NCBI GenBank assembly: GCA_963666935.1
Contig: OY762936.1
Location: 453,354 to 517,353 of the forward strand
Reading direction: 5' to 3'
Source of the DNA: Christensenellaceae bacterium
Lineage (GTDB): Bacteria; Bacillota; Clostridia; Christensenellales; CAG-138
DNA: 64,000 nt
A model generated the notes under the pieces. That model worked only from the letters and a program-made list of their open reading frames with translations, made no database searches and was not told the DNA's origin. The first letter of the stretch is position 1, and every line of letters starts with the position of its first letter. The translations under genes were made by a program, and so were the position numbers. Below are positions 11,211 to 27,825 of this stretch, in pieces.

Positions 11211-11597
11211 TTATAGCGCCACTACCTCCGCAAGCTGTTTGAGCACATCGGATACCCGGTCCCATAGCTCCGCATAATCTTTTTGCAAAGCCGCGATTTC
11301 TAACGGGTACACGCTGTAGGTATTGGCATGGATTGCAACCTGATTCAAGTTAGCGGCACACCTGCGTTGCAGAGAAACAAGCTCCCGGACAGGTGCAAGA
11401 TCGACATTCAGGACGTATCCGTTCAAGGCCATCTTGCGAATGTAGGCACTCATGTTTTGTGTTCCCGCTTCCTCCATGCGGCGCTGGACAGTGTCATACT
11501 CGTCCTGGCTGACCCATACATAAACGGATGAAGTCAACACCTTTTCGGGAATTATCCGGTGCGCTGACTGCGGGGCGGCAATGGCTTTTAACCGCAA
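11211..11597 (-). CDS. mobilisation protein MobC-like (orphan relaxosome accessory protein)
   Basis: Matches the MobC family pattern: an SAYIRKMALNG segment and a LQRRCAANLNQVAIHAN NLNQ-type motif. No relaxase gene is adjacent. Confidence 0.45.
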   Translation of the reverse strand: MRLKAIAAPQSAHRIIPEKVLTSSVYVWVSQDEYDTVQRRMEEAGTQNMSAYIRKMALNGYVLNVDLAPVRELVSLQRRCAANLNQVAIHANTYSVYPLEIAALQKDYAELWDRVSDVLKQLAEVVAL

Positions 11598-12201
11598 GGT
11601 GGAAAAGAGTGGCGTGGTACGGCGGTTTTACCGTTGCAGCCGCTACGCCAACAGCGGGAGCAAATCTTGCTCCATGCACACCATCGACGCGGATACGCTG
11701 GAAAACATCATCTTAGCGGACATCCAGTATTACACTCAGACGGCAATCGGCGACGAAAAGAAACTGTACGACAGGCTTTTATCCTTCTCTGGCCAAGAGT
11801 GTAAAAATAAAAAAGCCGCGCAGGAAAAAGCTCTGCGCGACACGACAAACCGTATTTCGTTCATTCAGGACGCCAGCAAACGGCTGTTCGAGGAAAAAAT
11901 TACGGGCAACGTGCCGGACAGTCTGTTTAAGAATATGCTTTCCGACTATGAGCGCGAGATAAACGAGCCTGAGGAACAGTCTGACAACATCAGGCGGCAG
12001 CTTCAGGATCAGGAAAGCAGCGAGAGCAACGTTCAGAAATGGATGGAACTGATTAGGGAATGCGTTTCCATTGACAGGCTCGACCGGGCCACGGCGTTCC
12101 AGCTTATTGATAACGTGGCCGTGCATGAGCAGACGGATAAAGACGGTCATAAAAGCCAGAGCATTCAGGTTAAATACAATTTTGTGGGATGTTTAAGCTG
12201 A
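11581..12201 (+). pseudogene. C-terminal fragment of a large serine recombinase (zinc-ribbon plus coiled-coil region only; catalytic resolvase domain absent)
   Basis: RFYRCSRYANSGSKSCSMHTIDADTLENIIL resembles the recombinase zinc beta-ribbon, followed by a long coiled coil. There is no upstream in-frame resolvase domain. It overlaps the MobC ORF on the opposite strand. Confidence 0.45.
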
Positions 12202-12227
12202 CCCATCCCAAAATTCTCTATAAAAAG

Positions 12228-12329
12228 CATTATGGGCCGCACCTTACGGCACGGCTCATAATGCAATGGCGGAGAACATGAGTATTTCATTATGAGCCGC
12301 AGGGGGCGCGGCTGAGCGGTCTATCATTT
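12228..12329. repeat. structured element D/E1: inverted repeat hairpin, degenerate tRNA-Ser 3' fragment (tggcggagaa) and conserved 42-bp motif attatgagccgcN6cgcggctgaRcggtYtatcattt
   Basis: Near-identical copy at 27920-27982. It lies 27 bp after the serine-recombinase fragment's stop codon. Confidence 0.5.
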
Positions 12330-14122: not shown

Positions 14123-14902
14123 GTGTTGATTTACGAACAGGCAAGCAAAGTCATTTTCGCGAGCGACTTCATACCCAGGAACTCTTTAGTCCATGGCATA
14201 CCAGACAAAGCTTATTTGCGATTCAATCCGGCCAGTGTCTGCGCTCTCCCTCGTATAGAAAAGAAGAATATAAAGCCGTTGAATAAAGAACAAAGCGGAG
14301 CCTTCTTAAAGGCTATTAAAGGCTCTCGCTTCGAGACACTATTCACGCTTGACCTATTCACCGGTATGCGTGAAGGTGAAATACTGGGGCTTATGTGGGA
14401 ATGTGTTGATTTTACTAAAGGCACGATTTATATAAAGCAGCAGCTTCAGAGGGAACGCACGAAAAACGGTAAGTATTACTTTGCGCCTTTGAAAAACGAC
14501 AAGTCAAGAACCATTACTCCGGCTCCATGGATAATGAACCTTTTAAAAGAACATAAGAATAAACAAAAAAGCCACCGTCTTGCTGCAGGCGATACCTGGC
14601 AAGACAGCGGCTTAGTGTTCACAGATGAAATTGGCGGTCACTTTGCTATTCCCACGGTGTATAAGCACTTCAAGAACGCAGCGGCTGCAATTGGTTGCCC
14701 TTCAGCACGTTTTCATGACCTCCGGCATAGTTACACTGTCGCTGCAATCCGCTCTGGAGATGATATCAAGACAATTCAAGATAACCTCGGACATGCCACA
14801 GCTTCATTTACTTTAGACATTTACGGTCATGTTACTGATGAAATGAAAAAGGATAGCGCAGACCGCATGGAGGCATATATAAAGAGCGTAATAAACCGGT
14901 AA
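14123..14902 (+). pseudogene. tyrosine recombinase/phage integrase, N-terminally truncated (catalytic domain only)
   Basis: Catalytic-domain motifs are present: FHDLRHSYTVAAIRSG and LGHATASFTLDIYGHV, giving the R..H..R..Y tetrad region. The core-binding N-domain is missing. It is transcribed toward the adjacent tRNA-Ser fragments. Confidence 0.6.
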
Positions 14903-14966
14903 GGAAAAACTTTTATTTTAGAACGCAAAAATGCCCTGAATTCCGCAGAATTCAAGGCTTTTTTGA

Positions 14967-15500
14967 TGGCGGAGAAGGAGGGATTCGATTTCGGCCATCG
15001 GCAGGCCGAGCTTGCACTTCGTACTGCGCTCGTCGCGCCTGGCACGAAATCCCGGCCTCTAAAAACGCTTCACCGGAGCGTTTTCTTAACGTGGCTTCGA
15101 ATCCCACTCAACAACAGGCACAAAAAAAAACCCGTCTTAAAAACGGGCTCTTCTTTGTGGCGGAGAAGGAGGGATTCGAACCCGCATACAGCCATATTTA
15201 TGCGTATTTTTGCGTTATTTACCGTATGGATATTTGGCTAAAAACAGGCTTTTTTTACTTCGCCCGTGTCATTCAATACAACTGATTGATAAGGGGTAAG
15301 GGGTAAAATAAGGGGTAGAAAATGCGCCCTTCAACTAAACTTTTCTGAAGTAGTTTATCTCCCTATTCTTAATTCTTCGTCTGGCCTAATAGCTTCTTGG
15401 TGCAATCTTCTTTGCTTCGTCTATGCTTCAGATTACTTTAGTTCATGCTTTGTTCAATTTAATACTTACTTCCATAGCAGCCCTTTCTATGATGGGAACT
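14967..15500. repeat. 535-bp direct repeat R1 (copy 2 at 21791-22325), containing two tRNA-Ser 3'-end fragments
   Basis: Nearly identical to 21791-22325, with a few substitutions near the ends. Contains tggcggagaaggagggattcga at 14967-14988 and tggcggagaaggagggattcgaaccc at 15158-15183. Also contains a minus-strand terminator (cccgtttttaagacggg plus T9) and a triple aagggg-ta repeat at 15281-15311. ORFs predicted inside are translation artefacts. Confidence 0.8.
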
Positions 15501-15605
15501 ATGACCTGCCAGTTTCTCCATTAAATGCTGACGACGATTTTGTCCAATCTAATTATGGCGTTATTATTTGCGCTAATCTTCATGATGAACGTAGGTTGCT
15601 TTTTA

Positions 15606-17105
15606 TTAAGAAAACACAAATCCGCGCTCTCGAAATAACTTTATACAAGCATCAACCACTTTACCGTCATATTTTACCCCTCGGTGCATAGCAATCTCAT
15701 TGATTGCTGCATCAATACCCAAAGCTGGCCGGTACGGGCGATGTGACATCATTGCTTCAACAACATCTGCGACAGCCAATATCCTACTTTCAGTAATTAT
15801 TTGGTCTGCTTTCAGTTTCTGAGGATAGCCGCTACCATCCAGTCTCTCATGATGCTGATAAATCATCTCGATAATCTGCTGAGGAAAGTCAATTTCTTTG
15901 ACTATTTCATAGCTATATTCAACGTGACCCTGCAATATTTGATATTCCAGGTTGGATATTTTGCCAGGCTTGTTGAGAATGTCAGAAGGGATGTGAACTT
16001 TACCAATATCATGAATAAGCGCGCCAATCGATATATTATATATGACATCATCCGGTAGTTTCATTTCTTTGGCAATCGCACAAGACAATAACGCTACTCT
16101 CTTTTGATGTCCTGCAGTATATGCATCCTTCAGCTCTCCAATTTTTGATATTGTATTGATTGTTTGCTGCAACCTAAGAAGAAGTTTTTCATTTTTCCTC
16201 GCAAGTTCCTCTGACAGCACATGCAGGTTTTGACTTAACTGTGCAAGATTTTCCGCTGCAAGTTTGCGTTCCGAGATATCAATGCAAAAGGCAAGAATGC
16301 AGTTGTCATCAATTTTTGTACCAAAAAGGTCTATCCAATAATCTTTACTATCTTTTTTTCTAACTAAATATTCTGCAGATAAAATTCCTTTGTCTATAAG
16401 TTCATGAAAATCTGCAAGCCCTTTTTCAATTTGATCAGTTGCAAGGAAATCAGCCACAGATAGGCCTAATACCTCTTTCTTTGTACGCCCCATCATCCGG
16501 CATCCCATTTCATTTACATCAATATATCGGCCTAGAGCGTTAGTCACAAAAACTCCGATTGGGGCCTTTTTGATGTAAGATTTGAAGATATCTTCACTTC
16601 TTCTTAACTTGATTTCAAGCTTTTTCCGTTCGCTAATCTCTTGTTTCAGTTCGCTTGTGCGGTGTTCCACCAACAATTCAAGCTGATCTTTTCGATTGCT
16701 GACAAGTATGTTTCTCTCTTTGATTTTTGCCATTGCAATTAATTGTGTTATTAATACCATGTCATCTATTGGTTTGAAAAGAAATGCCTCTGCTCCTGCT
16801 TCAAAAGCTTTTAGCCGGAGTTGCTGGTCGTCTTCTAAGTCAGTAATAAATAACATTGGAGTAAACTGTAGGCTTTGCTCTTTCTTTAAAATCTGACTTA
16901 TTTTCAAACCATCAGCTTTACTCATAGATATATCAAGCAAAATAACATCAGGGTCATGGTCTTTTGCATATTTTATGCATTGTAATATTTTTGAGGTAAT
17001 GTCAATTTTTGCTCCAGGAAGCGCTTTGGAAATAGTTTCCGCCAAACTTTTTGAATTAGTTATACTATCGCCTAGAATTATAATTTTTAGGTTTCTTTCC
17101 TCCAT
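15606..17105 (-). CDS. response regulator with REC, PAS and HD-GYP (c-di-GMP phosphodiesterase) domains
   Basis: REC motif DVILLDISMSKADGLKI is present. The HD-GYP signature HDIGK ... HHERLDGSGYP is present. RBS ggaggaaagaaat precedes the ATG at 17105. Confidence 0.7.
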   Translation of the reverse strand: MEERNLKIIILGDSITNSKSLAETISKALPGAKIDITSKILQCIKYAKDHDPDVILLDISMSKADGLKISQILKKEQSLQFTPMLFITDLEDDQQLRLKAFEAGAEAFLFKPIDDMVLITQLIAMAKIKERNILVSNRKDQLELLVEHRTSELKQEISERKKLEIKLRRSEDIFKSYIKKAPIGVFVTNALGRYIDVNEMGCRMMGRTKKEVLGLSVADFLATDQIEKGLADFHELIDKGILSAEYLVRKKDSKDYWIDLFGTKIDDNCILAFCIDISERKLAAENLAQLSQNLHVLSEELARKNEKLLLRLQQTINTISKIGELKDAYTAGHQKRVALLSCAIAKEMKLPDDVIYNISIGALIHDIGKVHIPSDILNKPGKISNLEYQILQGHVEYSYEIVKEIDFPQQIIEMIYQHHERLDGSGYPQKLKADQIITESRILAVADVVEAMMSHRPYRPALGIDAAINEIAMHRGVKYDGKVVDACIKLFRERGFVFS

Positions 17106-17195
17106 ATTTCTTTCCTCCAATAATATTTTCCATACCAAGGTGTTGCAAATATAACTTATCACGTTAATCCCACCATAAACATTTGAAAAATCACC

Positions 17196-17408
17196 TCAGC
17201 CACAAAACATACGAGCAACATCGAAAGAACAGGCTTCTGGCTGCGCTTCCATCGCATCTGCCATGGTCTTAAGTTCTTCTAAGTTAATCGTTTCACGCTT
17301 CAGCTTTTTACCGAAGGCCTGCGGCGACTGACCTAACCGTCTAGCCAACTCGGAGACACTGATATTCATCTGTTCACATAGCTGTCGTATCATGTCCGAG
17401 GTTTTCAT
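17196..17408 (-). CDS. XRE-family helix-turn-helix transcriptional regulator
   Basis: MIRQLCEQMNISVSELARRLGQSPQAFGKK is a Cro/C1-type HTH. RBS ggaggaactatt precedes the ATG at 17408. It sits directly upstream of, and is co-oriented with, the HD-GYP gene. Confidence 0.6.
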   Translation of the reverse strand: MKTSDMIRQLCEQMNISVSELARRLGQSPQAFGKKLKRETINLEELKTMADAMEAQPEACSFDVARMFCG

Positions 17409-17592
17409 AATAGTTCCTCCATGTATCAATAAAAACATTATAAATCATTTGGCTAAACAATAATAGCGTGGGCGGCCTTCGCGGGGTGGTTTTTCCACCC
17501 CTCCGCAAAGCGATATATATTGGGCTTTTCCCGATGGGCGTTATTTTCCTCGATCTCAATAAATCCATGCGAAACCAGTTCATTTACCACTT

Positions 17593-18676
17593 TTGCGAAC
17601 CCACCACGTTCTCAAGCAAATTGGCGTGGAAGGGTCCGAAGAAGGCTTAACCACAATCGCCAATACCATATCAGACGCGCTTATAATGGGGGATAAGTCT
17701 GCCATCAATCTCTCTACCCCGAACTACATGGCGCAGGGCATAAACGAACAAGAGGCTGCCAGAAAAGCGTATACCGACGCGGTCAACGGTCTGGCTCTTG
17801 ACACTCTCGGCAGTATGGTATCGGACAGCTTTGCGGGTTCTTTTGGTTCGGCACAGGGCAGGACAAACAACACTGCGCAGGACACAACACAGCCAGTTCA
17901 ACAGGATACGCGCCCTGTACAGCCCATTCACCAAGTTCAGCCAGAAGTGGTACAGCCCGTACAGCCCGTTCCACAGACGATACAGCCAATGGAAATCGCG
18001 CAACCGAATATGGCAGCACAATTCATTGAAACCGCGATTGAAACGGATGGAGCCGAAAATACCCCGGCAATGCAAGAAACCATATGGCAATATCCTGGTA
18101 ATGTTGATCGCGGACTGGTAGATTATGTGAAACAGTCTGCCTCTTCCGAATCCAACTCACTAAAACCCTATGAACTCAATACGGTAAGTGATCGGGCCGC
18201 ATCTGATATCAGAAACAAGTTGAACACATACTGAAACGACACGGCCGAAACGGATTGGCAGATCAAAGTATGTCTGACGTTAATAATATCGGTCGGATTC
18301 AGTATGCGCTTGATAATTACGATGCCGTAGAAGACGGCGGCCGAGTCACCGGATATTCAGAAAGAATCCCCGGGAAAGATCAAAACAGAACTGCCAGAAG
18401 CATCAAGTATTCAAGAAAATTGATGGCACTATGTATGTTGTTGAGGCTGTGCCGGATACCACAAAAAAGACAGTCTATGTAGTTTCTGCATACATAAATA
18501 AAAGAGGATCGTCTTCGCTCCCCAGCTCAAATACGGGGGTGATTACCGAAAACGACGAACTGTTTTTTAATCTCAACCTTAGCTGTGTGGATACTTCTGT
18601 GGCACGTACAGGGCGAAAAGGATATATTTGCACTCGCGAAGCGATTCTCCTGTCGGTAGACAAGGAAACCTTTTAA
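17593..18676 (+). pseudogene. frameshifted remnant ORFs, possibly the C-terminal part of a large polyvalent/conjugative-element protein
   Basis: Three overlapping ORFs in different frames (17593-18234, 18255-18482, 18431-18676). There is no proper ATG or RBS. A Q/P-rich linker is present. Confidence 0.25.
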
Positions 18677-18706
18677 TCCACGACCCCGTCCCCACGGTTA
18701 GCTTGT

Positions 18707-21079
18707 TCAGGTTAGTGAAGTGTCAGCCTGTTCCCGCAACAAATCGGCAAACTGTTCCGGCACAATAGGTCTGCTAAAGTGGAACCCCTGCATCTCGTCA
18801 CAGGACTGATCCTTTAGGTAGTTCATTTGTTCTATTGTTTCGACACCTTCGGCCACAACTGTTAAACCTAAGGTTTCACCCATGGCAATGATAGCATGGG
18901 TAATCGCCTTGTCTTCAGCGTTTTCCGGGACATTACGGATAAATGAACGGTCAATCTTTAGCGTATCAATGGGGAAATGCTTGAGCTGGGCAAGAGATGA
19001 GTATCCTGTACCAAAATCATCAATGGCCAGTCGCACTCCTATACTTTTAATTCTAACTAACACATCCATCATTTTCGTAGGGTTAGTCATTATCATGCTT
19101 TCGGTAATTTCCAATTCCAATAGATTTGGTGCCATACCGGAATCGTTTAGAGCGGCTTTTATATCATCTATCAGATTGTTATCTGCAAGTTGTCGTAATG
19201 ACAAATTTACCGCCATACAGACAGCTGGAAGCCCCTGCTTTTGCCATGCAACGTTTTGAGCGCATGCTGTCTTCAATACCCACTTACCAATTGACACTAT
19301 CATTCCTGTTTCTTCAGCCACTGGGATGAATTGCGTGGGAGTCACTGAACCAAGGTGTGGATTTTGCCAGCGAAGGAGTGCTTCCACGCCGGTTATGATG
19401 CCTGTTTTGAAATTCACTTTTGCTTGATAATGTAAAGAAAGCTCATTTCGTTCAAGCGCAAGCCGTAGATTTGTCTCAATAGCCAAACGTCCTGCTGATT
19501 GCAACTGAATATCTTCGGAGTAAAATTGAAAGTTGTTTTTGCCTTCTTCTTTGGCATAATACATAGCCATATCCGCATGTTTCATCAGTAGTTGTTCGTC
19601 TTCGCCATCCTGAGGGTATATGCTTATGCCAATGCTGGCAGTTACTCGGCATTCGTCACCCAGCAGAACTATTGGTTTATAAGTGCTGGCAAGAATATTA
19701 TTAGCTACAAGTTCTAAATCACTCAACTTGTTAAAGTCCTCAATCAAAATAATAAATTCATCTCCACCCTGACGGCTGACAACATCCTCTGCGCGTAGTG
19801 TTTGCTTATATCGCATGGCAATCTCTTGCAGCAGTTGATCTCCTGCCTCGTGACCCTTAGTGTCGTTGATTATCTTGAAACGGTCAAGGTCAATGAAGAA
19901 AACTGCTAATTTCCGTTTGTGACGTTTCGCAGTCTGGATCGAATGGTTAAGAATTTGGGAAAGCATCAATCGGTTGGGCAACCCCGTCAGGCTATCATGT
20001 GTGGCGAGATATTGAATCTTTCCCTCGGCGATTTTATATTCGGTAACATCTTTGGATGCGAGGACAAATCCTATCCGGGTATTATAATTATCGCTGCATT
20101 CGGAAATTGATAGAATTATTGGAATATTCACACCTGCGCTAGAAACCATGAACGTTTCCACATTCCGTATAGGACATGAGTTCAGCAATTCGGAAATGCT
20201 TGTATTGGTTGATTCGCCATCCGAGAGGAAGAGTCTTCCCAGCGGTTCTCCACCCAATTCCTTTTGGGTGTATCCCAGCAGCCTTTGCGTTTCCGGATTA
20301 ATACTTAATATGATTCCTTTTTGATCTGTAAGAATTACAGAATCGATGATTGTCTGAAATAAATTCTCTGCAATTAAAGATGGTGACAGTGTCATTAATT
20401 TATATTTTATAATAGCATATAAAATTCCCAGTTGCCAGATCATCATTCCTGCTGCAATCATATCCGGGATTTCGGCTTTGATGATTATATTTGCACACAC
20501 ATTATACCCCATGGTAAACAAAAAGGAAGTTGCGCCCGAAAAAAATATTATTTTAGTCTGTTTTCGTTCCCTTGTTGAGGTAGCTCTTCTTAGCACAGAA
20601 TAACATAAGTACATGTTTATTGTCCCTAAGATTCCTATGAAAATCATTAAAATCCAATACCATGCTGACGCTGCATTAGCAACTAATCTCCATCCGTATT
20701 GATTATAAATCACATCACTAAAGTATAAATTTTGTTTTATTGCCTGAAATATAAAAATAATTGCGGGCAAATAAAGCACAATGTAAATCCACCATTTTTT
20801 TAAAATGTTATCCTTTTTCGTATATACAAGAAGAAAGTGAAGAGCAAGGCTCGAAAATGTGCAAAATCCAATAGACGCTATCGTATTCCAAATGATACAA
20901 CTGGCTTTATCAGGCATGATTATTGAAACAGCGGTAGCAAACGACCATATAAAAAGACTTAGATTAAGCACAAAATACGTCCTGTTTAATGCTGCTTTTC
21001 TGTCCTTGAAGAGCATAACAACGCCCATAGTAAGATAAATAATACTAAATAAAAACAATAACTGTGAAAAAAAGTTCAT
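18707..21079 (-). CDS. membrane sensor diguanylate cyclase/phosphodiesterase (multi-TM N-domain, PAS, GGDEF, EAL)
   Basis: About 8 N-terminal TM helices. GGDEF motif RQGGDEFIIL is present. EAL motifs EALLRW and DDFGTGYSSL are present. RBS ggag sits 8 nt upstream of the ATG. Confidence 0.75.
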   Translation of the reverse strand: MNFFSQLLFLFSIIYLTMGVVMLFKDRKAALNRTYFVLNLSLFIWSFATAVSIIMPDKASCIIWNTIASIGFCTFSSLALHFLLVYTKKDNILKKWWIYIVLYLPAIIFIFQAIKQNLYFSDVIYNQYGWRLVANAASAWYWILMIFIGILGTINMYLCYSVLRRATSTRERKQTKIIFFSGATSFLFTMGYNVCANIIIKAEIPDMIAAGMMIWQLGILYAIIKYKLMTLSPSLIAENLFQTIIDSVILTDQKGIILSINPETQRLLGYTQKELGGEPLGRLFLSDGESTNTSISELLNSCPIRNVETFMVSSAGVNIPIILSISECSDNYNTRIGFVLASKDVTEYKIAEGKIQYLATHDSLTGLPNRLMLSQILNHSIQTAKRHKRKLAVFFIDLDRFKIINDTKGHEAGDQLLQEIAMRYKQTLRAEDVVSRQGGDEFIILIEDFNKLSDLELVANNILASTYKPIVLLGDECRVTASIGISIYPQDGEDEQLLMKHADMAMYYAKEEGKNNFQFYSEDIQLQSAGRLAIETNLRLALERNELSLHYQAKVNFKTGIITGVEALLRWQNPHLGSVTPTQFIPVAEETGMIVSIGKWVLKTACAQNVAWQKQGLPAVCMAVNLSLRQLADNNLIDDIKAALNDSGMAPNLLELEITESMIMTNPTKMMDVLVRIKSIGVRLAIDDFGTGYSSLAQLKHFPIDTLKIDRSFIRNVPENAEDKAITHAIIAMGETLGLTVVAEGVETIEQMNYLKDQSCDEMQGFHFSRPIVPEQFADLLREQADTSLT

Positions 21080-21203
21080 GGTTTACTCCACTTCTTAATT
21101 AATGCCATATTTCGCTTTGTTAATAAGATATAGAACATTTCCGTTCATGGGTGGATCCGTTAATTTTTACATTGTCTGCTTACCTATTATAATACCACTT
21201 TTG

Positions 21204-21401
21204 CTAATTAAATTCCATAAGTTGTGCTGCAGTGTGGAAAGCGGCGGCAAATGACCAGATGATAAGGCTCAAATTGAGAGTAAAGAAAAGTCTGTTTTGC
21301 ATCGACCGCTTATCCAGAAGAATAACCTTGAATCCCAATAAAACATACAAAACAGAAAGAATCGTCAGTATAAGCGAGAATATATTCATATTGCCTTGCA
21401 T
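21204..21401 (-). pseudogene. 5' fragment paralogous to the N-terminus of the GGDEF-EAL sensor gene
   Basis: The 65-aa ORF aligns with the first ~55 aa of ORF 18707-21079 (FTLNLSLIIWSFAAA vs FVLNLSLFIWSFATA). It is truncated near repeat R2. Confidence 0.4.
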
Positions 21402-21790
21402 GATATACGCATAGCAAGAGCTCGTGTAATCATGCGCTCCTTTCTGTGATTTTTGTTATAGTTAAAATAGTCACTATGGACTGTTAATAGCTTGGCTATT
21501 TGCTATTTTCTGCTTAAACTGGGTTATAATGGCATGCGTCTAATGACTTATTAATTTATTTCATTTCGATAAGGCACATGATATCAAAATTATTCCATAT
21601 TAATATTATACTAGTAATATAAATTAATCAATGTTATTTGTGGCTTTGCATGTCTTCGTGCCTGTGTTAGATATGCCCGGCGCAAACAGCCAGAAAGTCT
21701 AGTATTACAGGCTTTTTGCCCGCAGACGCAACAAATCCCGCCTCTTAACGAAGCGGGATTTATTGTATCAACGATTAGTGATGATATGCT

Positions 21791-22325
21791 TGGCGGAGAA
21801 GGAGGGATTCGATTTCGGCCATCGGCAGGCCGAGCTTGCACTTCGTACTGCGCTCGTCGCGCCTGGCACGAAATCCCGGCCTCTAAAAACGCTTCACCGG
21901 AGCGTTTTCTTAACGTGGCTTCGAATCCCACTCAACAACAGGCACAAAAAAAAACCCGTCTTAAAAACGGGCTCTTCTTTGTGGCGGAGAAGGAGGGATT
22001 CGAACCCGCATACAGCCATATTTATGCGTATTTTTGCGTTATTTACCGTATGGATATTTGGCTAAAAACAGGCTTTTTTCACTTCGTCCGTGTCATTCAG
22101 TATAACTGATTGATAAGGGGTAAGGGGTAAAATAAGGGGTAGAAAATATGCCCCCCAACTAAACTTTTCTGAAGCAGTTTATCTCCCTATTTTTAATTCT
22201 TCGTCTGGCCTAATAACTTCTTGGTGCACTCTTCTTTGCTTCGTCTATGCTTCAGATTACTTTAGTTCATCCTTTGTTCAATTTAATATTTACTTTCAAA
22301 GCAGCTCACTGGTAATGGGAACTAA
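21791..22325. repeat. 535-bp direct repeat R2 (copy of 14967-15500), with tRNA-Ser 3' fragments at 21791-21812 and 21982-22007
   Basis: Nearly identical to R1. Copy offset is about 6824 bp. Confidence 0.8.
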
Positions 22326-22674
22326 AAAAATACTCCGGCTACCGATTAAGACTATGCTTGCACTAAAAGTTACCGAATAAATAATGCCGTCTATAAAAGA
22401 ATGCATCCCAATGCCTACTAACGCGGTTATGCCAAAAGCCAGATCGGGTTGTTTCGTTTTATATTTTATAAATTTATTACTAAAGAACATGAACATAAAA
22501 CCTGCTAAGGCAGCCAGACCCGCGTTGGGATTTTTTTATGGCTTGGGGAAAAGCCATAACTAGAGGAGCGGAAATTAAAACGCCAGCCGCGAAACATATA
22601 AAATGCTCCTTAGCTCTTTCTGCCCAAACTCTATTTCTATAAACAAACAAAATTCCAAGGCTATTTACTATCAT
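22296..22674 (-). pseudogene. ZIP-family (ZupT-like) metal transporter, frameshifted
   Basis: Two adjacent ORFs in different frames. The HSFIDGI motif resembles the ZIP TM4 HSxxEG signature. A T-homopolymer lies at the junction (~22530). Confidence 0.3.
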
Positions 22675-22747
22675 TGCACTTAATGCAAAAGTCGCAATCC
22701 ATGTGAATGTACTAAATGTTGGCCTTTTCTTATCTCCTTTTAACTGG

Positions 22748-23944
22748 TCAATTTTTTAAAGGTGAATTAATTGTTAGGCCAAGTTTTTTAAGCGCTATTT
22801 CAGGAGTCTCTTTATCTGTGACAATTATTTCAATATTTGAGTCAGAAAAAACATAGGCCGGTCCTTTACTGCTAAAGTCTTTTTTGAGTAGGACTAGATC
22901 AACCATATTCCTTACCAGAAATTCTGCTGCTAATATTCCTTTGCTTTTTTCAATTTTACAAAAGGGATTGTCAATAATCTCTGTCTTATTAGAGGCCTTG
23001 TCTCCAGCCTTAAATGTTACAAGCATAAAATATAATGCTTCCCCAAAATGAGCACTGATCGAAGCTTGATCATCTGTCAACGGTATGGCATAAATGATTT
23101 CTTCCTTTTGTAGTGGCTCATAATGGATAAGTATCCGGTCTATGTTCTTGATTTCAACTTTGATATGGTCCTCTATTTTATCTACAAGGTAATGAGCTTT
23201 GTCTAAGTCGTGCGTTTTGATAATTAAACTTGCTTCAATAAACTTAAACCGTCCTGAATTACGGCCTGTTAGGGATTTCAGCTCGATTACTTGAGGTGTA
23301 TCTACAATGATCTTTTCCACCTTGCTAAGTGTTTTATAATCTAAGGAAGCGTCCAAAAGGACTCGGATCCCATCCAGTAATATTTCCAGTCCAGTCTTTG
23401 CAATAAATCCAACAACAATGAAAGCCGCTACCTTATCAAATTGATATCCCAGTATGTTGGCAATTATTGCTGCCAAAACAGCTGTATTGCTTAACACGTC
23501 CGTACGGATATGAGCAGCGTCAGCTAATAACATGGGCGAATTTATTTTTTTCCCAATTTTTTTCTCATATCTGGAAAACCAGAAGGTGATCACCATTGCA
23601 ACGACTACACTAAGTATTGCAAGCCAAGAATTTTGCAGTGTTCCCGAACTTTTTGTCATAACCTCCCGCACAATCTCATAACCCGTGTAGAGGATAATTA
23701 AGGAAATTAAAACAGACATTAAATTTTCAACCTTATAGAGGCCATATGGAAATCTCTTGGTTTTGCGTTTTGCAATCTTCAATCCTACAAAAACAGTTGA
23801 AGATGCAACAAAATCCGCAAAGCTGTGAAATGCTTCAGCTTTTAATGCAATACTGCCAGACGCAGATGCAGCCAAATATTTTACGCCAAATAAAAGAAAA
23901 TTAATAGCCATCGATAGCAGTGCCGTTCTTTCGCTTATCTCCAT
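22748..23944 (-). CDS. cation diffusion facilitator (CDF) transporter fused to a C-terminal NifX/NafY-like (dinitrogenase FeMo-cofactor-binding fold) domain
   Basis: CDF HxxxD motifs are present in two TM helices (HSFADFVAS and AAHIRTDVLSN). C-terminal ISAHFGEALYFMLVTF matches the PF02579-type FG..A..F core. Confidence 0.6.
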   Translation of the reverse strand: MEISERTALLSMAINFLLFGVKYLAASASGSIALKAEAFHSFADFVASSTVFVGLKIAKRKTKRFPYGLYKVENLMSVLISLIILYTGYEIVREVMTKSSGTLQNSWLAILSVVVAMVITFWFSRYEKKIGKKINSPMLLADAAHIRTDVLSNTAVLAAIIANILGYQFDKVAAFIVVGFIAKTGLEILLDGIRVLLDASLDYKTLSKVEKIIVDTPQVIELKSLTGRNSGRFKFIEASLIIKTHDLDKAHYLVDKIEDHIKVEIKNIDRILIHYEPLQKEEIIYAIPLTDDQASISAHFGEALYFMLVTFKAGDKASNKTEIIDNPFCKIEKSKGILAAEFLVRNMVDLVLLKKDFSSKGPAYVFSDSNIEIIVTDKETPEIALKKLGLTINSPLKN

Positions 23945-24247
23945 AAAATCACACCCTTTCAAAAACATTGATTATCTATAAATCATTTTAACCTATAGGT
24001 ATCATATCCCTTATAATTTATCGCAACCACCCCGCTGTCTTTTTTCAGATCATCTAAAATTACATTGATATTGTTACAGCTTCTCGACTTTAGAAATCCT
24101 TCAATTTCGAACTGGTTCATAGGATGACGCTTTATAATGCTCACGATTCTGTAATTTGTCGATCTTTTGCAAGGCCGGCAAAAGGTGTCCCAAAATCCGG
24201 CATTTCGTTTACCTCCTTAATTCTTACTCGCTGTAGACCTTAACCTA

Positions 24248-24922
24248 TTATTTCTTTTCTTTATTAAAGCATAAGAACCAATCAAGGCAATATTTATTTT
24301 CATCTTGGTTTTCCATTCTCTCCTTGGCAACTCCACATGATCCAGGTGTTGGAATAATCGTATCATCTCCCGGCCTCCAGTTGGCTGGTGTGGCAACTGA
24401 ATCTTTATCGGCCTTTTGTAAAGCAAGTATTATTCTCTTGATTTCATCAAAATTACGCCCACAGGATGCCGGGTAGTATAGGATAGTTCGAATAACCGCC
24501 TTTGGGTCGATGACAAATACTGCACGCACTGCCTGAGTGGTAGACTGAGATTGGATCATTCCATATTTATTGGCTACTTCCATTTTGATATCTTCAATTA
24601 AAGGGAATTTCACTTCAACTTTCTCCAGGCCATTCCATTTTAACTCCTGTATCTTTCTGAGCCATGCTATGTGCGCATAAAGTGAGTCTACTGAAAGTCC
24701 GATAAGCTCTGTATTCAATGCTTTGAAGTCTTCTGCCATTGACGCAAAAGTCATAAATTCAGTGGTACAAACTGGTGTAAAATCGGCTGGGTGAGAAAAC
24801 AAGATCACCCATTTACCTTTGAAGTCATCAGGAAAATTGATTGCGCCTTGCGTTGTTACTGCTTTAAACGCTGGCGCCAAGTCCCCAATTAATGGCATTC
24901 TATTTACATTCATTTCTTCCAT
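24248..24922 (-). CDS. 1-Cys peroxiredoxin (Prx6-like, AhpC/TSA family)
   Basis: FTPVCTTE peroxidatic-Cys motif is present. RBS aaggagg sits 8 nt upstream of the ATG at 24922. Confidence 0.75.
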   Translation of the reverse strand: MEEMNVNRMPLIGDLAPAFKAVTTQGAINFPDDFKGKWVILFSHPADFTPVCTTEFMTFASMAEDFKALNTELIGLSVDSLYAHIAWLRKIQELKWNGLEKVEVKFPLIEDIKMEVANKYGMIQSQSTTQAVRAVFVIDPKAVIRTILYYPASCGRNFDEIKRIILALQKADKDSVATPANWRPGDDTIIPTPGSCGVAKERMENQDENKYCLDWFLCFNKEKK

Positions 24923-25042
24923 GATTATTACCTCCTTTAATTTTATAAAAAAATATGGTATTTGCCCAAAAGAGATACATACACCGTTTTCCATTGTTTT
25001 GTCATCTACTAGCATTGCTATTTTTATTAGGTATCCTCCTCC

Positions 25043-25387
25043 TTATCGTATTGTTCTTCTTCCACAACCATGCATCCGCTCAATTTCGTTGTAAAGTTTA
25101 TAATCTCCGCCTTCAATCTTAAGAACGTTCCCATTAACTAAGGACTCGGCGATCTTACTTCGTGCATCCCTGTAAATATTTTGAACAGTAGCACGTGCAA
25201 CCTGCATCTTTTCAGCACATTCTTCCTGAGTCAAACCTTCAAGATCTATAAGGCGGATAGCTTCATACTCTTCAACTGTCATCATAATAATTTCGTTTTC
25301 TATATCTGATCCATTAAGCGGTCCATATAGGTTGCTCTTTGGCAGGCAACATACTTTTCTCCATTTTCTTGGTCTTGACATTACCAA
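25043..25387 (-). CDS. DUF134 (UPF0251) family putative DNA-binding regulator
   Basis: N-terminal [10 protein letters not shown] and a central HTH-like segment [28 protein letters not shown] are present. RBS gaggtg precedes the ATG. Confidence 0.55.
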
Positions 25388-25429
25388 TTCACCTCATTCA
25401 AGCAACATAAGTAACAGGGGTATCCCCTG

Positions 25430-25726
25430 TCACTTATTAACCTCTGGCATATTTTCTAATTGTCTACTAACAATATCTAGCCTTTTTTGAAGTAACTCTT
25501 TTTGCTCTGTAAGAATCTCTTTGTCAGTTAACACAACAGTTTCTCCAGCAAAAGATCTTCCAAATCCTCGTAGGCATCCATAGCCCGCTCCCCGACCTAA
25601 TCCTCTGCCACTTACTCGACCAAATCCAGCGCCATATCCGCCTACATTAGCTCCATTGCAAACTCCTGAGACTCTTCCGCTCATTGCTCCACGACCCATT
25701 GGGCCTGTTCCATCTCTTCCTGGCAT
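25430..25726 (-). CDS. Gly/Arg-rich small protein (DUF5320-like) with C-terminal coiled coil
   Basis: N-terminal MPGRDGTGPMGRG followed by GRG/GYG repeats containing Cys. C-terminal helical KEILTEQKELLQKRLDIVSRQLENM. Confidence 0.45.
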   Translation of the reverse strand: MPGRDGTGPMGRGAMSGRVSGVCNGANVGGYGAGFGRVSGRGLGRGAGYGCLRGFGRSFAGETVVLTDKEILTEQKELLQKRLDIVSRQLENMPEVNK

Positions 25727-25749
25727 AGTATCTTTTCCTTTCGATTTGA

Positions 25750-25986
25750 TTATGTTCTAATCATTGTCGTACCGCATTTTGGGCACTTCATACTTGCACA
25801 AGGTTCCGCACGTAGATGTTTTACTTTTTCACCACAGTTTGGGCATTCACAATAACCTTCTGGACCTGCACTTGCAGGACCTCCCATTTTTCCTCTACCA
25901 GCTGCTGTTCCAGTTTGTCTGCCTATACCGGCACCTCTGCCTGCTCCAGCTGGGCCTGTTCCGTCTCTTCTTAACATATCTACCAC
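25750..25986 (-). CDS. Gly/Arg-rich small protein (DUF5320-like N-terminus) with C-terminal CxxC...CxxC zinc ribbon
   Basis: N-terminal MLRRDGTGPAGAGRGAGIGR. C-terminal CECPNCGEKVKH...CPKCGTTM. RBS aggaggtg precedes the ATG. Confidence 0.45.
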   Translation of the reverse strand: MVDMLRRDGTGPAGAGRGAGIGRQTGTAAGRGKMGGPASAGPEGYCECPNCGEKVKHLRAEPCASMKCPKCGTTMIRT

Positions 25987-26023
25987 CTCCTAATGGTTTT
26001 TGGCATATGCTATTTATAATTTC

Positions 26024-26051
26024 ATTATAGACTGTTTTTGGCATATGTCAA
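26024..26051 (-). promoter_or_regulatory. near-consensus sigma-A promoter (TTGACA-16-TATAAT) for the DUF5320/DUF134/Prx/CDF operon, bracketed by direct-repeat putative operator catatgccaaaaac x2
   Basis: On the minus strand: ggttaTTGACAtatgccaaaaacagtcTATAATgaaattataaatagcatatgccaaaaacc, then RBS aggaggtg and the ATG at 25986. Confidence 0.5.
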
Positions 26052-26244
26052 TAACCGTTTTGGAATAAGCAAAATGAAACAGAGCCGGCACTCAAGGAAT
26101 TATTTCCTCTAGAGACGGCCAGTTTTGTACAGGTGATACTGTATTAAGGACTATTCGTCATTAACTTCTGCGAGCTGTGGCCGCTGATCGATTGTCAGTA
26201 CCACGCCTTCACTCTCTAATGCATATCCGATCAATTGGAAATAG

Positions 26245-26290
26245 CGATTTAACTGCAACAAAGAGCAATTAAAATCTATAAGGAGTATTT
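26245..26290. repeat. 46-bp direct repeat (copy 1) cgatttaactgcaacaaagagcaattaaaatctataaggRgtattt with internal imperfect palindrome TTAACTGC-N8-GCAATTAA
   Basis: Second copy at 27826-27871. The two copies flank the patatin gene. Confidence 0.7.
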
Positions 26291-26479
26291 ACCTTTATTA
26301 AACAAAAAAAAAGACTACCAAACATGGCAATCAAAATATTTTAATGCAAAAATTCAATAGTTTAGCTTAATAATATACCACCAGAAACCAATTCATAATA
26401 ACAATACAACTTTCTACAATAATATTATGAATCTATTTTCGAATTTGCTTTGATAAGCCTCTGCTGATGAACTATCTCT

Positions 26480-27325
26480 TCAATTACTTTTCTTAAATAT
26501 TTTATGGGCTAGCTTTTCCCAGTAGTTCGGAGTCTTTCCTTCGAGAAGTTTTTTAATATCATCAATCATTCCAAGTGCTGCGGCTCTGCCTATGCCAATG
26601 CTTTCTTCCACTTTCGCAAATTCAGTTGGGCCGATTTTACTTGTATCTACCACAATTGTAATATCTGCATCGGTTTTCATTCCACGCATGGCCTCCCATT
26701 GCTGAAGCTCAAAAGAATATATCATAATATCAACGATGTTTTTAGGTGAAGAACGGAGCTCTCCACGGTAACCAACATCTACTGCTATCACAATATCTGC
26801 GCCCATACTGCGCGCTGCATCTACCGGTACCCTTACAAGCACTCCACCGTCTACATAAGTCTTGCCGTCAAATATTACGGGTTCGAACACTCCAGGAAGG
26901 GAGATACTAGCACGAACCGCATCTGTCGTTTTGCCTGAATCAAATATCTTAACCTTACCATCTTCCAAGCAGGCGGATATTGTGGCAAACGGTATTTTCA
27001 TTTCATCTATATTGCTATCGCCAGTCAATGCAGTGATAATGGTATCTATATTATTACCTTTTATAAGACCAATGCGCGGCAGAGTAACATCAATAAGTTT
27101 TCCGTATCCATTGCTGAAGGTATCGGACACAATGGTATGTATTTCTTCAGATGAAATGCCGCTTGCGAACATGCAGCCTATTACAGCGCCCATACTGCAT
27201 CCGGCAATAAAGTCTATAGGCACACCATGTTCTTCCAATACCTCCAACACACCTATATGAGTCAGTCCTCTGGCAGCACCTGCTCCAAGAGCCAATCCGA
27301 TTTTAACTTTCTTATTCATTTTCAT
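26480..27325 (-). CDS. patatin-like phospholipase
   Basis: GxGxxG oxyanion motif (LALGAGAARG), GxSxG nucleophile motif (GCSMGAVIG) and a downstream DGG Asp motif are present. Confidence 0.75.
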   Translation of the reverse strand: MKMNKKVKIGLALGAGAARGLTHIGVLEVLEEHGVPIDFIAGCSMGAVIGCMFASGISSEEIHTIVSDTFSNGYGKLIDVTLPRIGLIKGNNIDTIITALTGDSNIDEMKIPFATISACLEDGKVKIFDSGKTTDAVRASISLPGVFEPVIFDGKTYVDGGVLVRVPVDAARSMGADIVIAVDVGYRGELRSSPKNIVDIMIYSFELQQWEAMRGMKTDADITIVVDTSKIGPTEFAKVEESIGIGRAAALGMIDDIKKLLEGKTPNYWEKLAHKIFKKSN

Positions 27326-27825
27326 TCGCTCCTGTTGCTTTATTTATTACAATTCATTCAAAAAATTATTGCAAGATAAAGTGCTAATAAGCATTGAATT
27401 ATTATCCTTATCGCTTGAATTAAATTTTCGAGTTCTTCCGGTGTGCAAGTAAAAACGTTCAAGAAAACATATTAACCAAAAATATTTCTCCTGACTGCTC
27501 ATGCTTGGGAATATATCGAAACCCGCATTGTATCCGGTCTATTAAGATTCGTATAATATGTATAACCTGTTACAGTGTGTTCCTTTAATATAATATTTAA
27601 AGGTATATGGTTGGAATTGTCAAATTTGGCTCTTATCTACAGGCAAGATAGTTGCAATGCCTGGAGAGAATACGAGCGGCCGGTAGGGTTCTGCTACGGA
27701 TAGCCCGGGGATATTTAATAACCCTAGTATCAATATTTCTATCCTTAGGAGAACCTTAATGCGATAACACATGATAAAGAAAAAACCGCAGACAGCGATG
27801 CTAATCACACTATTGCCTGCGGTTA

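What the first reader, a model, noticed from the sequence alone, without database searches (positions are those of the whole stretch)
14967..22325. Two 535-bp near-identical direct repeats bracket a 6.3 kb c-di-GMP signalling island
R1 (14967-15500) and R2 (21791-22325) are almost identical. Each contains two tRNA-Ser 3' fragments, a minus-strand intrinsic terminator (cccgtttttaagacggg plus T9), a hairpin-rich segment and a triple AAGGGGTA repeat (15281-15311 and its copy). They flank XRE plus REC-PAS-HD-GYP, GGDEF-EAL and remnant ORFs. A 5' fragment paralogous to the GGDEF-EAL sensor (21204-21401) lies just inside R2, as if an ancestral sensor gene was split. The CCCCTTA-type triple repeat could be recombinase arm sites or an iteron. 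The repeats could mediate deletion or amplification of the c-di-GMP module by homologous recombination.
Basis: seen in the sequence. Interest (0 to 1): 0.6.

Follow-up and report, generated by a model that had tools for sequence, protein, structure and literature searches.

The report
Duplicated integration-site scars at a tRNA-Ser hotspot
The two ~520-bp repeats are real; they are copies of the attachment-site end of mobile elements that piled up one after another behind a serine tRNA gene, so the c-di-GMP genes sit in one integrase-less, probably immobile island of an ordinary tandem island array.

Summary
Observation confirmed. R1 (14967-~15490) and R2 (21791-~22314) are direct repeats: 289 nt identical, then ~93% for ~230 nt. 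Both begin exactly at the 3' end (CCA included) of tRNA-Ser(gct). The live gene lies at 31056-31148 on the minus strand. Its 3' end recurs in one orientation at 12267, 14967, 15158, 21791, 21982 and 27920. This is a tandem array of decayed integrative elements, GC 37-44% against 54% in the core genome.

Each repeat reads: core a, a 169-nt spacer with a terminator, core b, then an arm carrying three AAGGGGTA. All seven AAGGGGTA in the 64 kb lie beside cores. An intact element in an Oscillospiraceae MAG (L047) has a tRNA-Ser, an integrase followed by two AAGGGGTA, and a distal core followed by three. Core-to-repeat distance is 133-134 nt in four lineages despite diverged sequence.

The only related integrase here (14123-14902) lacks about 150 N-terminal residues. 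The c-di-GMP island therefore resembles an integrase-less cis-mobilizable element. Only RecA recombination between the repeats remains a plausible route for its loss or amplification. The "split sensor" idea is unsupported. How the repeat was duplicated, and what the a-b spacer is, remain unresolved. Known kind, modest interest.

The parts
11211..12276 (.). Remnant of a mobilizable element: MobC/NikA gene 11211-11597(-) and the C-terminal part of a large serine recombinase 11581-12201(+). It ends in a 10-nt partial tRNA core, TGGCGGAGAA, at 12267-12276.
   Evidence: Pfam. 11524-12276 is 91.6% identical to L144 8911-9664, where the same sequence abuts the intact tRNA-Ser(gct) of the closest relative.
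14123..14902 (+). 5'-truncated tyrosine integrase ('X-type'). Only the catalytic domain is present.
   Evidence: Only PF00589 is found. It aligns from residue ~150 of 393-400-aa homologues, and no N-terminal part is found in any frame. The closest full-length homologues sit ~120 nt from the 3' end of tRNA-Ser(gct) in the same orientation.
14933..14958 (-). Terminator-like hairpin between the integrase stop codon and core a1.
14967..14988 (-). Core a1: a 22-nt exact copy of the 3' end of tRNA-Ser(gct), CCA included. It is the left edge of R1.
14989..15157 (-). Spacer between cores a1 and b1. GC is 0.53. It contains a minus-strand intrinsic terminator (15159-15119). The piece 15048-15105 is 86% identical to 30947-31002, which lies downstream of the live tRNA.
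15158..15183 (-). Core b1: a 26-nt exact copy of the tRNA-Ser(gct) 3' end.
15184..15490 (+). Distal (P'-type) arm of a 'Y-type' element. It carries three AAGGGGTA at 15291-15317, 133 nt from the start of core b1, and a TATTTATGCGT tandem at 15195-15221.
   Evidence: The same layout is seen in L047, L124 and L142.
15491..21790 (-). Cargo of the c-di-GMP island. It holds REC-PAS-HD-GYP 15606-17162, HTH 17196-17438, a phage-protein fragment ORF 17593-18234(+), 7TM-PAS-GGDEF-EAL 18707-21079, a 65-aa paralogue stub 21204-21401, and a terminator-like hairpin about 16-46 nt left of core a2 (about 21745-21775). There is no recombinase.
   Evidence: GC is 0.40.
21791..22314 (-). R2, the second copy of the module. 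Core a2 is 21791-21812 and core b2 is 21982-22007. AAGGGGTA x3 lies at 22115-22141.
22315..27919 (-). Next island: CDF transporter 22748-23968, peroxiredoxin 24248-25015, DUF134, DUF5320 and patatin 26480-27325. A single AAGGGGTA at 27862-27869 is read as the remnant of its tRNA-proximal (P) arm. There is no recombinase.
27920..27938 (-). Degenerate tRNA core: 19 nt with 1 mismatch, and the T-loop part is lost. It is followed at 27939-27990 by a sequence like the left end of the serine-recombinase-type element seen at 12277-12330.
27939..31055 (+). The island nearest the tRNA: FG-GAP protein 28576-29631 and clostripain-like peptidase 29725-30918. GC is 0.44.
31056..31270 (-). The live target: tRNA-Ser(gct) 31056-31148 and tRNA-Ser(tga) 31182-31270. 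Conserved core genes follow from 31391.
   Evidence: Collinear with L144 from 31055 onward.

Best explanation
R1 and R2 are two copies of an attachment-site junction module. They lie inside a tandem array of horizontally acquired, now decayed, integrative elements that inserted one after another into the 3' end of tRNA-Ser(gct) (31056-31148, minus strand).

Each copy reads, on the plus strand:
- core a (22 nt of the tRNA 3' end);
- a 169-nt spacer ending in a terminator;
- core b (26 nt of the tRNA 3' end);
- about 300 nt of the distal (P'-type) arm of a family of small tyrosine-integrase elements. This arm carries three AAGGGGTA integrase arm-type binding sites 133 nt from the core.

Shown directly:
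- the exact tRNA-end copies, all in one orientation;
- the restriction of AAGGGGTA to core-adjacent positions;
- the same architecture in an intact element elsewhere;
- integrases of the window's type sitting next to tRNA-Ser(gct) in relatives.

Inferred:
- Int binds AAGGGGTA.
- The c-di-GMP segment (15184-21790) and the metal/redox segment (22008-27919) are derivatives of two related elements that share this arm but have lost their integrases. They resemble CIMEs but do not meet the full definition (see the membership test).
- The array is now essentially fixed, because the only related integrase (14123-14902) lacks its arm-binding and core-binding domains and the 27920 core is damaged.
- The remaining route to loss or amplification of the 6.8-kb c-di-GMP unit is RecA-dependent recombination across the repeats (289 bp perfect identity), or recombination by an integrase supplied from elsewhere in the genome.

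The sharp switch from 100% to ~93% identity at 15256 implies recent gene conversion or a recent duplication of the left part. Which of these occurred is not resolved.
For: (1) The left edge of both repeats is exactly the tRNA 3' end.

(2) Seven junctions in one orientation lie at 12267, 14967, 15158, 21791, 21982, 27920 and 31056. GC is 0.37-0.44 between them and 0.54 to the right of the tRNA.

(3) In the closest relative, L144 (SPFH protein 94% identical, core genes collinear), a different element abuts the same tRNA. The locus is therefore a variable hotspot.

(4) The closest full-length homologues of the window integrase (P0005, P0006; 69%) lie about 120 nt from the 3' end of tRNA-Ser(gct), followed by tRNA-Ser(tga). 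This is the layout seen in the window.

(5) All 7 AAGGGGTA in 64 kb are beside cores, against 1.4 expected.

(6) L047 carries an intact 5.85-kb element. It has:
- a tRNA-Ser(gga);
- a 384-aa integrase, 49% identical to the window integrase;
- two AAGGGGTA directly after the integrase stop codon;
- a 23-nt distal core;
- three AAGGGGTA 134 nt from that core;
- CI-like repressor and replication-initiator genes.

(7) Core-to-repeat distance is 133-134 nt in the window, L047, L124 and L142, while the intervening sequence is diverged.

(8) No other integrase remnant is found in the window. The window integrase is truncated.

(9) The published definition of tandem accretion and CIMEs fits this array, although the island meets the attL/attR criterion only in part (PMC5704250).
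Against: - No experiment shows that Int binds AAGGGGTA.
- The c-di-GMP island has the AAGGGGTA arm only at its left end. Its right end (left of core a2) has a terminator but no AAGGGGTA. It is therefore not a clean attL/attR-bounded derivative of the L047-type element.
- A simple series of integrations at the tRNA predicts one core per junction. It does not predict the a-spacer-b doublet, and it does not predict duplication of the whole 520-bp module.
- The spacer's origin is unresolved. It has host-like GC and is partly homologous to the sequence that now abuts the live tRNA.
- Only four independent comparison loci carry the tRNA-Ser-type module.
Confidence: 0.8

Rival explanations
1. The island is still mobile. 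R1 and R2 act as working attL/attR-type sites. A full-length integrase encoded elsewhere in the 2.44-Mb genome (or on an incoming element) excises the c-di-GMP unit as a circle, alone or as a composite with its neighbours. The R duplication itself arose when such a composite circle (spacer, core b, arm, cargo) re-integrated at core a.
For: - Cores a1, b1, a2 and b2 are perfect copies of the tRNA end.
- The arm sites are intact and identical in both copies.
- Composite excision and re-integration would explain why the repeat starts exactly at core a and carries core b inside it.
- Transfer of CIME-ICE tandems has been observed in other systems (PMC5704250).
Against: - There is no intact integrase in the 64 kb.
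- There is no AAGGGGTA-bearing proximal arm next to a2 or b2.
- The only proximal-arm remnant (27862) adjoins a damaged core.
- No excisionase or transfer genes lie in the island.
Confidence: 0.15
2. R1 and R2 result from an ordinary segmental duplication or unequal crossing-over of chromosomal DNA. Their tRNA-like content is incidental, and the repeats have no site-specific recombination history.
For: The 289-nt perfectly identical block indicates a recent homology-driven event.
Against: - The left boundary coincides to the base with the tRNA 3' end in both copies.
- The same module, with the same spacing, is found in unrelated genomes next to integrases and tRNA-Ser.
- The right part of the repeat is about 7% diverged, which fits two related element arms better than one recent copy.
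Confidence: 0.05
3. The AAGGGGTA clusters are iterons or partition (centromere-like) or operator sites for a replication or ParA system of the elements. They are not integrase arm sites.
For: In L141/L143 and L150 a cluster of 3-5 AAGGGGTA-like repeats lies about 100-150 nt upstream of a ParA-type ATPase gene. The L047 element encodes a replication initiator.
Against: - In L047 the motif occurs in both element ends, directly after the integrase stop codon and near the distal core, not next to the replication gene.
- The 133-134-nt distance to the crossover core is conserved across four lineages.
- In the window no rep or par gene is adjacent.
- In L141 and L150 the cluster is also within about 130-140 nt of a tRNA 3' end.
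Confidence: 0.1
4. Assembly artefact: a repeat misplaced or duplicated by the assembler.
For: None found. Reads are not available here.
Against: The copies differ at 16 or more positions and fade into different unique flanks. The window comes from a 2.44-Mb contig.
Confidence: 0.02

Closest known systems
Tandem accretion of integrative elements and CIMEs (cis-mobilizable elements). Examples are the ICESt1/ICESt3-CIME arrays of Streptococcus thermophilus and the tRNA-Lys composite islands of S. agalactiae, reviewed in PMC5704250.
   Same: - Successive site-specific insertions into the 3' end of one tRNA gene.
- Units separated by direct repeats of the target end.
- Units that have lost their integration and transfer genes but keep att-type sequences.
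- A mix of unrelated recombinase types at one site.
   Different: - There is no ICE or working integrase in the array.
- The duplicated unit is a 520-bp composite (two cores plus spacer plus arm), not a single att core.
- The c-di-GMP island keeps the recognisable arm only on one side.
- Mobility is untested.
Lambda-type attP architecture: a core flanked by arm-type Int sites, two in the P arm (P1, P2) and three contiguous in the P' arm (P'1-P'3). This comparison rests on my own knowledge of the lambda system.
   Same: - In L047 there are two copies of the 8-mer in the integrase-proximal arm and three closely spaced copies in the distal arm, all in one orientation.
- The window repeats keep the three-copy distal set.
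- Related integrases have an N-terminal extension, and P0005 has a weak Arm-DNA-bind_4 match.
   Different: - The motif (AAGGGGTA), the distances (133 nt to the core start) and the target (tRNA-Ser T-loop and acceptor end) differ from lambda.
- Binding has not been shown.
- No Xis or IHF sites have been identified.
Tandem genomic islands at the tmRNA gene ssrA in Dehalococcoides. I saw only the title and abstract of PMC3146451.
   Same: Horizontally acquired islands that integrated site-specifically at one small-RNA gene.
   Different: Different target gene and different hosts. The paper was not read beyond its abstract, so the comparison goes no further.

Membership tests
att junctions of tRNA-targeting tyrosine-integrase elements | Direct repeat identical to the 3' part of the target tRNA gene, in the same orientation as the gene. 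| tested here: met
   22- and 26-nt exact copies lie at 14967, 15158, 21791 and 21982. Degenerate or partial copies lie at 27920 and 12267. The live tRNA is at 31056.
att junctions of tRNA-targeting tyrosine-integrase elements | Integrase gene adjacent to a junction. | tested here: inconclusive
   An integrase gene ends 65 nt left of core a1, as in relatives L009 and L012, but it is 5'-truncated. The two islands bounded by R1, R2 and 27920 have no integrase.
att junctions of tRNA-targeting tyrosine-integrase elements | Repeated arm-type sites at fixed distances from the core in both arms. | tested here: met
   AAGGGGTA x3 lies 133-134 nt from the core in the window, L047, L124 and L142. L047 has x2 after the integrase stop codon. 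A single copy at 27862 lies beside the 27920 core. Protein binding was not tested.
att junctions of tRNA-targeting tyrosine-integrase elements | Excision to a circular form and an empty attB. | not testable with these tools
   No reads or strain series are available. The closest relative, L144, has a different occupant at the site rather than an empty one.
CIME (cis-mobilizable element) | Has lost integration and transfer genes. | tested here: met
   Pfam and tblastn find no recombinase, relaxase or transfer genes in 15184-21790 or 22008-27919.
CIME (cis-mobilizable element) | Retains both attL and attR. | tested here: inconclusive
   Cores are present on both sides. The c-di-GMP island has the recognisable arm only on its left side. 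The neighbouring island has both arm remnants, but its right core is damaged.
CIME (cis-mobilizable element) | Mobilised in cis by an element integrated in tandem. | not testable with these tools
   This needs mating or excision assays. No functional partner element is present in the window.
Composite transposon or IS-bounded unit | Transposase gene, terminal inverted repeats and target-site duplication. | tested here: not met
   - R contains no ORF with a transposase family hit, and no Rfam, plasmid or phage match.
- The short ORFs within R were not submitted to Pfam.
- The repeats are direct.
- The left edge is a tRNA end.
Integron cassette array (attC sites) | IntI-type integrase with attI, and short imperfect-palindrome attC sites after single-gene cassettes. 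| tested here: not met
   No IntI is present. The units are multi-gene and about 6 kb long. The repeat is 520 bp and carries tRNA-end copies. The spacer's fold is not exceptional in this window (z -1.9).
Iteron-type replication origin | Clustered direct repeats next to a rep gene and an A/T-rich region. | tested here: not met
   No rep gene lies next to either triple in the window. In L047 the repeats lie at the element ends, not at the replication-initiator gene.

The most novel reading that the evidence does not exclude
The whole module (core a, structured spacer, core b, arm) may be a functional, portable unit of this element family rather than debris.

On this reading the outer core a is a decoy copy of the tRNA target that the element carries with it. 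It serves as a landing pad for other elements: the window's integrase-bearing element sits at a1, and the c-di-GMP island ends at a2. It also serves as an alternative outer excision site. Islands could then be stacked and moved as composites without re-using the live tRNA.

In favour:
- The doublet, with a terminator next to b, recurs in three lineages (window, L047, L124). In each lineage the cores match that lineage's own tRNA variant.
- In L047 and L124 the spacer plus core a forms an unusually stable closed hairpin, bracketed by an inverted tRNA-end copy (z -5.8 and -7.8).
- The module was duplicated as a unit here.
Probability: 0.1. Interest if true: 0.6.

Novelty: new member of a known kind. 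Interest (0 to 1): 0.3.

Why it matters
This explains a conspicuous repeat pair as a routine product of island accretion at a tRNA hotspot. It shows that the c-di-GMP signalling genes (an HD-GYP phosphodiesterase response regulator and a GGDEF-EAL sensor) are accessory, horizontally acquired cargo in an uncultured gut-type Clostridia genome. They are liable to be lost or amplified as a 6.8-kb block.

The useful by-products are:
- a candidate arm-site motif (AAGGGGTA) with a fixed 133-nt geometry, for a family of small integrative elements in Oscillospiraceae/Eubacteriales;
- evidence that at least three recombinase lineages compete for the same tRNA-Ser 3' end.

Both help in delimiting islands in metagenome-assembled genomes. 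Nothing here challenges current understanding.

Tried and rejected
- Rfam on the whole window, and a permissive search on R, found only the two tRNAs and chance-level hits.
- blastn of R against the plasmid and phage collections found no match.
- Exact look-ups of window proteins in the contig index failed. The source genome is not indexed there, so no alternative junctions could be searched for.
- The first genome-wide DNA pattern, AAGGGGTAAGGGGTAN{2,8}AAGGGGTA, was badly chosen. Only L047 and L124 were relevant. The refined pattern gave L141-L143 and L150.
- P0016-type integrases (67% identical) are not at tRNA-Ser, so they say nothing about this site.
- I looked for a distal att site in L009, L012 and L013, but the contigs end too soon.
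- I tested whether the a-b spacer is a disrupted tRNA or tmRNA. ARAGORN found nothing at default settings with introns allowed, and only implausible intron-containing calls at a lowered threshold.
- I guessed from a sequence motif that the short ORFs at 22296-22674 are a truncated ZIP transporter. No Pfam support was found even at E = 10, so the guess was dropped.
- I looked for the c-di-GMP gene set as a conserved mobile unit. HD-GYP homologues at 65-82% identity sit in unrelated contexts without a GGDEF-EAL neighbour. L148 shares only the HD-GYP gene plus 85 nt.
- Composite transposon, integron attC and iteron readings were rejected (see the membership test).


Full report
**1. The observation**

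The repeat pair is real.
- The repeat finder reports 14967-15266 = 21791-22090 at 99%.
- MAFFT and blastn extend the match to about 515-524 nt.
- Base by base, 14967-15255 is identical to 21791-22079 (289 nt).
- Fifteen substitutions fall between 15256 and 15482 (about 93% identity).
- Similarity dissolves at 15482-15501.
- If the 16 differences were spread evenly, a difference-free first 291 nt would have a probability of about 1e-4. The repeat is therefore a mosaic of a very recent part and an older part.
- The copies differ from each other and run into unique flanks, so a collapsed-repeat artefact is unlikely. Reads cannot be checked.

- The minus-strand terminator is at 15159-15119.
- AAGGGGTA lies at 15291, 15298 and 15310, and at 22115, 22122 and 22134.
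- The gene content is HTH, REC-PAS-HD-GYP and 7TM-PAS-GGDEF-EAL.
- The 65-aa stub at 21204-21401 is 46% identical to the N-terminus of the GGDEF-EAL protein.
- The 'hairpin-rich segment' is the exception. The a-b spacer folds no better than shuffled sequence in this window (z -1.9).

**2. What the left edge is**

Both repeats begin with TGGCGGAGAAGGAGGGATTCGA. This is the reverse complement of the last 22 nt, CCA included, of a tRNA-Ser(gct) gene. The live gene lies 9-16 kb to the right, at 31056-31148 on the minus strand. It is followed by tRNA-Ser(tga) at 31182-31270.

A second, 26-nt copy lies 191 nt inside each repeat. Further copies in the same orientation are:
- a 19-nt copy with one mismatch at 27920;
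- a 10-nt stub at 12267.

Right of the tRNAs the DNA is 54% GC and collinear with the closest relative found (L144). In L144 the SPFH protein is 94% identical and the core genes are 76-84% identical at the nucleotide level, 82-84% over the first ~8 kb. Left of the tRNA, the segments between the cores are 37-44% GC.

In L144 the same tRNA-Ser(gct) is directly abutted by a different occupant. This is a mobilizable element with relaxase, MobC and a large serine recombinase whose reading frame runs into the tRNA end. The window keeps a 91.6%-identical remnant of that element at 11524-12276. It ends in the 10-nt core stub.

The locus is therefore an integration hotspot carrying a tandem array of insertions. 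R1 and R2 are two of its junctions.

**3. Which recombinases**

The only tyrosine integrase of this kind in the window is 14123-14902. It ends 65 nt left of core a1.
- Homologues are 393-400 aa with an N-terminal SAM-like core-binding domain. P0005 also has a weak arm-binding-domain match.
- The window copy starts at about residue 150, and the missing part is absent in every frame.
- Its closest full-length relatives (69% identical; L009, L012, L013) sit about 120 nt from the 3' end of a tRNA-Ser(gct) that is followed by tRNA-Ser(tga). Strands and order are the same as here.

Core a1 is thus the tRNA-proximal junction of that (now dead) element.

**4. What the right part of the repeat is**

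All seven AAGGGGTA in the 64 kb lie next to cores: three in R1, three in R2 and one 58 nt left of the 27920 core. The expectation is 1.4, and 0 of 100 shuffles reach 7.

Pattern scans of public genomes and metagenomes found the same arrangement elsewhere.

The most informative locus is L047, an Oscillospiraceae MAG. It has an apparently intact 5.85-kb element, which reads from right to left as follows:
- tRNA-Ser(gga) at 7656-7747 on the minus strand;
- a terminator;
- TATAAGGGGTACGATAAGGGGTA;
- the stop codon of a 384-aa integrase, 49% identical to the window's;
- a CI-like repressor gene;
- a phage-type replication-initiator gene;
- a Fic gene;
- AAGGGGTAAGGGGTAcgatAAGGGGTA;
- a 23-nt copy of the tRNA end, 134 nt beyond the triple.

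The distance from the start of the distal core to the first repeat is:
- 133 nt in R1 and R2;
- 134 nt in L047;
- 133 nt in L124 (a Eubacteriales MAG);
- 133 nt in L142.

The sequence in between is not conserved, and the core differs with each host's tRNA-Ser.

Three observations point to integrase arm-type sites:
- the fixed geometry across diverged sequence;
- the presence of the motif in both arms;
- the two-plus-three arrangement.

This is the lambda-type attP logic, which I cite from my own knowledge. Protein binding itself is inferred.

Related clusters also occur within about 130-140 nt of a tRNA-Pro(cgg) 3' end, upstream of a ParA gene (L141/L143, L150). The motif family is therefore wider than the tRNA-Ser elements. 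This keeps a partition or operator reading alive as a minor rival.

**5. Reading the array**

From right to left:
1. The live tRNA.
2. An island with FG-GAP and clostripain-like genes (27939-31055). Its left end resembles the left end of serine-recombinase-type elements (compare 27939-27990 with 12277-12330).
3. A damaged core at 27920, with a single AAGGGGTA beside it.
4. An island with CDF transporter, peroxiredoxin and patatin genes (22315-27919).
5. R2.
6. The c-di-GMP island.
7. R1.
8. The truncated integrase and further debris down to the 12267 stub.
9. Prophage tail and lysis genes at 1-8400.

Neither of the two islands that begin with the R arm has any recombinase, relaxase or excisionase. 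They resemble CIMEs, decayed elements that keep att sequences, stacked by accretion (PMC5704250), although the attL/attR criterion is only partly met.

The cargo itself is mosaic.
- The HD-GYP gene plus 85 nt is 88% identical to a gene in an unrelated context (L148). The similarity ends at 15521, about 30 nt from the end of the repeat.
- Other homologues have no GGDEF-EAL neighbour.

**6. How it most likely works now**

The array is probably inert for site-specific recombination. This is inferred from four facts:
- the cognate-type integrase is truncated;
- there is no AAGGGGTA-bearing proximal arm next to a2 or b2;
- the one proximal-arm remnant adjoins a core that has lost its T-loop part;
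- no other integrase of this kind lies in the window.

The repeats still offer 289 bp of perfect identity, and about 520 bp in all, in direct orientation 6,824 bp apart. From general knowledge of RecA-dependent recombination, that is ample for deletion or tandem amplification of the c-di-GMP block. An integrase encoded elsewhere in the genome could also act on the intact cores (rival, 0.15).

**7. What remains unexplained**

A plain series of insertions at the tRNA gives one core per junction. Here each R has two cores, 191 nt apart. The whole a-spacer-b-arm unit is duplicated, and its left 289 nt are identical.

What is known about the spacer:
- Its GC is host-like (0.53).
- Its part nearest core b is 86% identical to the 58 nt at the same distance from the live tRNA (30947-31002).
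- A similar doublet exists in L047 (a degenerate outer core, with the ~30-aa tail of another integrase beside it) and in L124 (an outer core 257 nt out, with a chromosomal lyase gene beyond it).
- In L047 and L124 the spacer plus outer core folds into a very stable closed hairpin. An inverted copy of the tRNA end lies next to b's terminator (z -5.8 and -7.8). In the window the effect is weak (z -1.9).

Two routes could yield the duplication:
- excision of a composite circle between core a and a tRNA-proximal core, followed by re-integration at another core a;
- two related elements in tandem, followed by gene conversion of the left 289 nt.

I cannot choose between them. The bolder reading is that the doublet is a carried 'landing pad'. 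I give that about 0.1.

**8.

It is partly supported.
- Right: the repeats are real, they are integrative-element ends, the triple is best read as arm sites, and homologous recombination could remove or amplify the block.
- Wrong or unsupported: R1 and R2 are not the two ends of one element. They are two copies of the same end. The 'split sensor gene' has no support: the stub is a 5' remnant directly upstream of its full-length paralogue, 390 bp from R2, and no matching remainder lies across R2.

**9. Verdict**

This is a new instance of a known phenomenon: tandem accretion of integrative elements at a tRNA gene, with integrase-less CIME-like islands. It is well documented here and has a useful candidate arm-site motif. 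Interest is modest (0.3).

The host is an unnamed Clostridia/Eubacteriales bacterium. The nearest named relative of the neighbouring SPFH protein is Candidatus Pelethousia, at 77% identity.

Noticed in passing
window 14989-15157; L047 1621-1775; L124 4351-4570: The spacer between the two cores is bracketed by the outer core and an inverted tRNA-3'-end-like copy that sits just outside core b's terminator. In L047 and L124 the spacer plus outer core folds into a closed hairpin far more stable than shuffles (z -5.8 and -7.8). In the window the effect is weak (z -1.9). Sequence and length (about 155-235 nt) are not conserved. The origin is unexplained.
   Followed up: partly
window 11211-12340: Remnant of a mobilizable element (MobC/NikA and the C-terminus of a large serine recombinase). 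It is 91.6% identical to the element that abuts tRNA-Ser(gct) in the closest relative, L144. It ends in a 10-nt tRNA-core stub at 12267. This is followed by a hairpin-containing sequence similar to 27939-27990, which looks like the left end of the same kind of element.
   Followed up: partly
window 1-8417: Prophage-like late genes: glycine-rich and Laminin_G_3 tail-fibre-type proteins, an S8 / PG_binding / NlpC-P60 lysin (6032-7783), and small ORFs with PHROG hits (7743-8417). Their relation to the array further right is unknown.
   Followed up: no
L141 4814-5070, L143 (same sequence, reverse strand), L150 723-966: AAGGGGTA-type clusters (3-5 copies) also occur about 130-140 nt beyond the 3' end of a plus-strand tRNA-Pro(cgg), just upstream of a ParA-type ATPase gene, in human-gut and IMG/VR contigs. 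The same motif appears to serve a second group of elements with another tRNA target, or it may have a par/operator role there.
   Followed up: partly
window 15195-15221 and 22019-22045; same position in L047 and L124 (alignment A2, columns ~345-365): About 40-60 nt inside core b, all lineages have a short tandem of G(A/C)GT separated by a 5-6-nt A/T run (window: TATTTATGCGT ATTTTTGCGT). This may be a bend or accessory-protein site in the arm.
   Followed up: no
window 17593-18234 (+): A 213-aa ORF with no Pfam hit. Its first ~80 residues match an internal part (positions 486-559 of 3513) of PHROG 22978. It looks like a fragment of a very large phage or element protein. Local GC is 0.46, higher than the flanking c-di-GMP genes, which suggests a mosaic island.
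   Followed up: no
window 15521-17126 vs L148 7541-9144: The HD-GYP response-regulator gene plus 85 nt downstream is 88% identical at the DNA level to a gene in an unrelated chromosomal context (between purine-biosynthesis and MFS-transporter genes). The similarity stops about 30 nt from the right end of R1.
   Followed up: yes
L016-L134 (genome scan): Perfect or near-perfect AAGGGGT heptamer tandem arrays are common in cyanobacteria, Vicinamibacterales, Verrucomicrobia and others. They are unrelated to this finding but swamped the first pattern search.
   Followed up: no
L047 1500-1583: A tyrosine-recombinase C-terminal tail of about 30 aa (…VDVTLDIYSHPD…) sits just left of the degenerate outer core in L047. 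This mirrors the truncated integrase left of core a1 in the window.
   Followed up: partly
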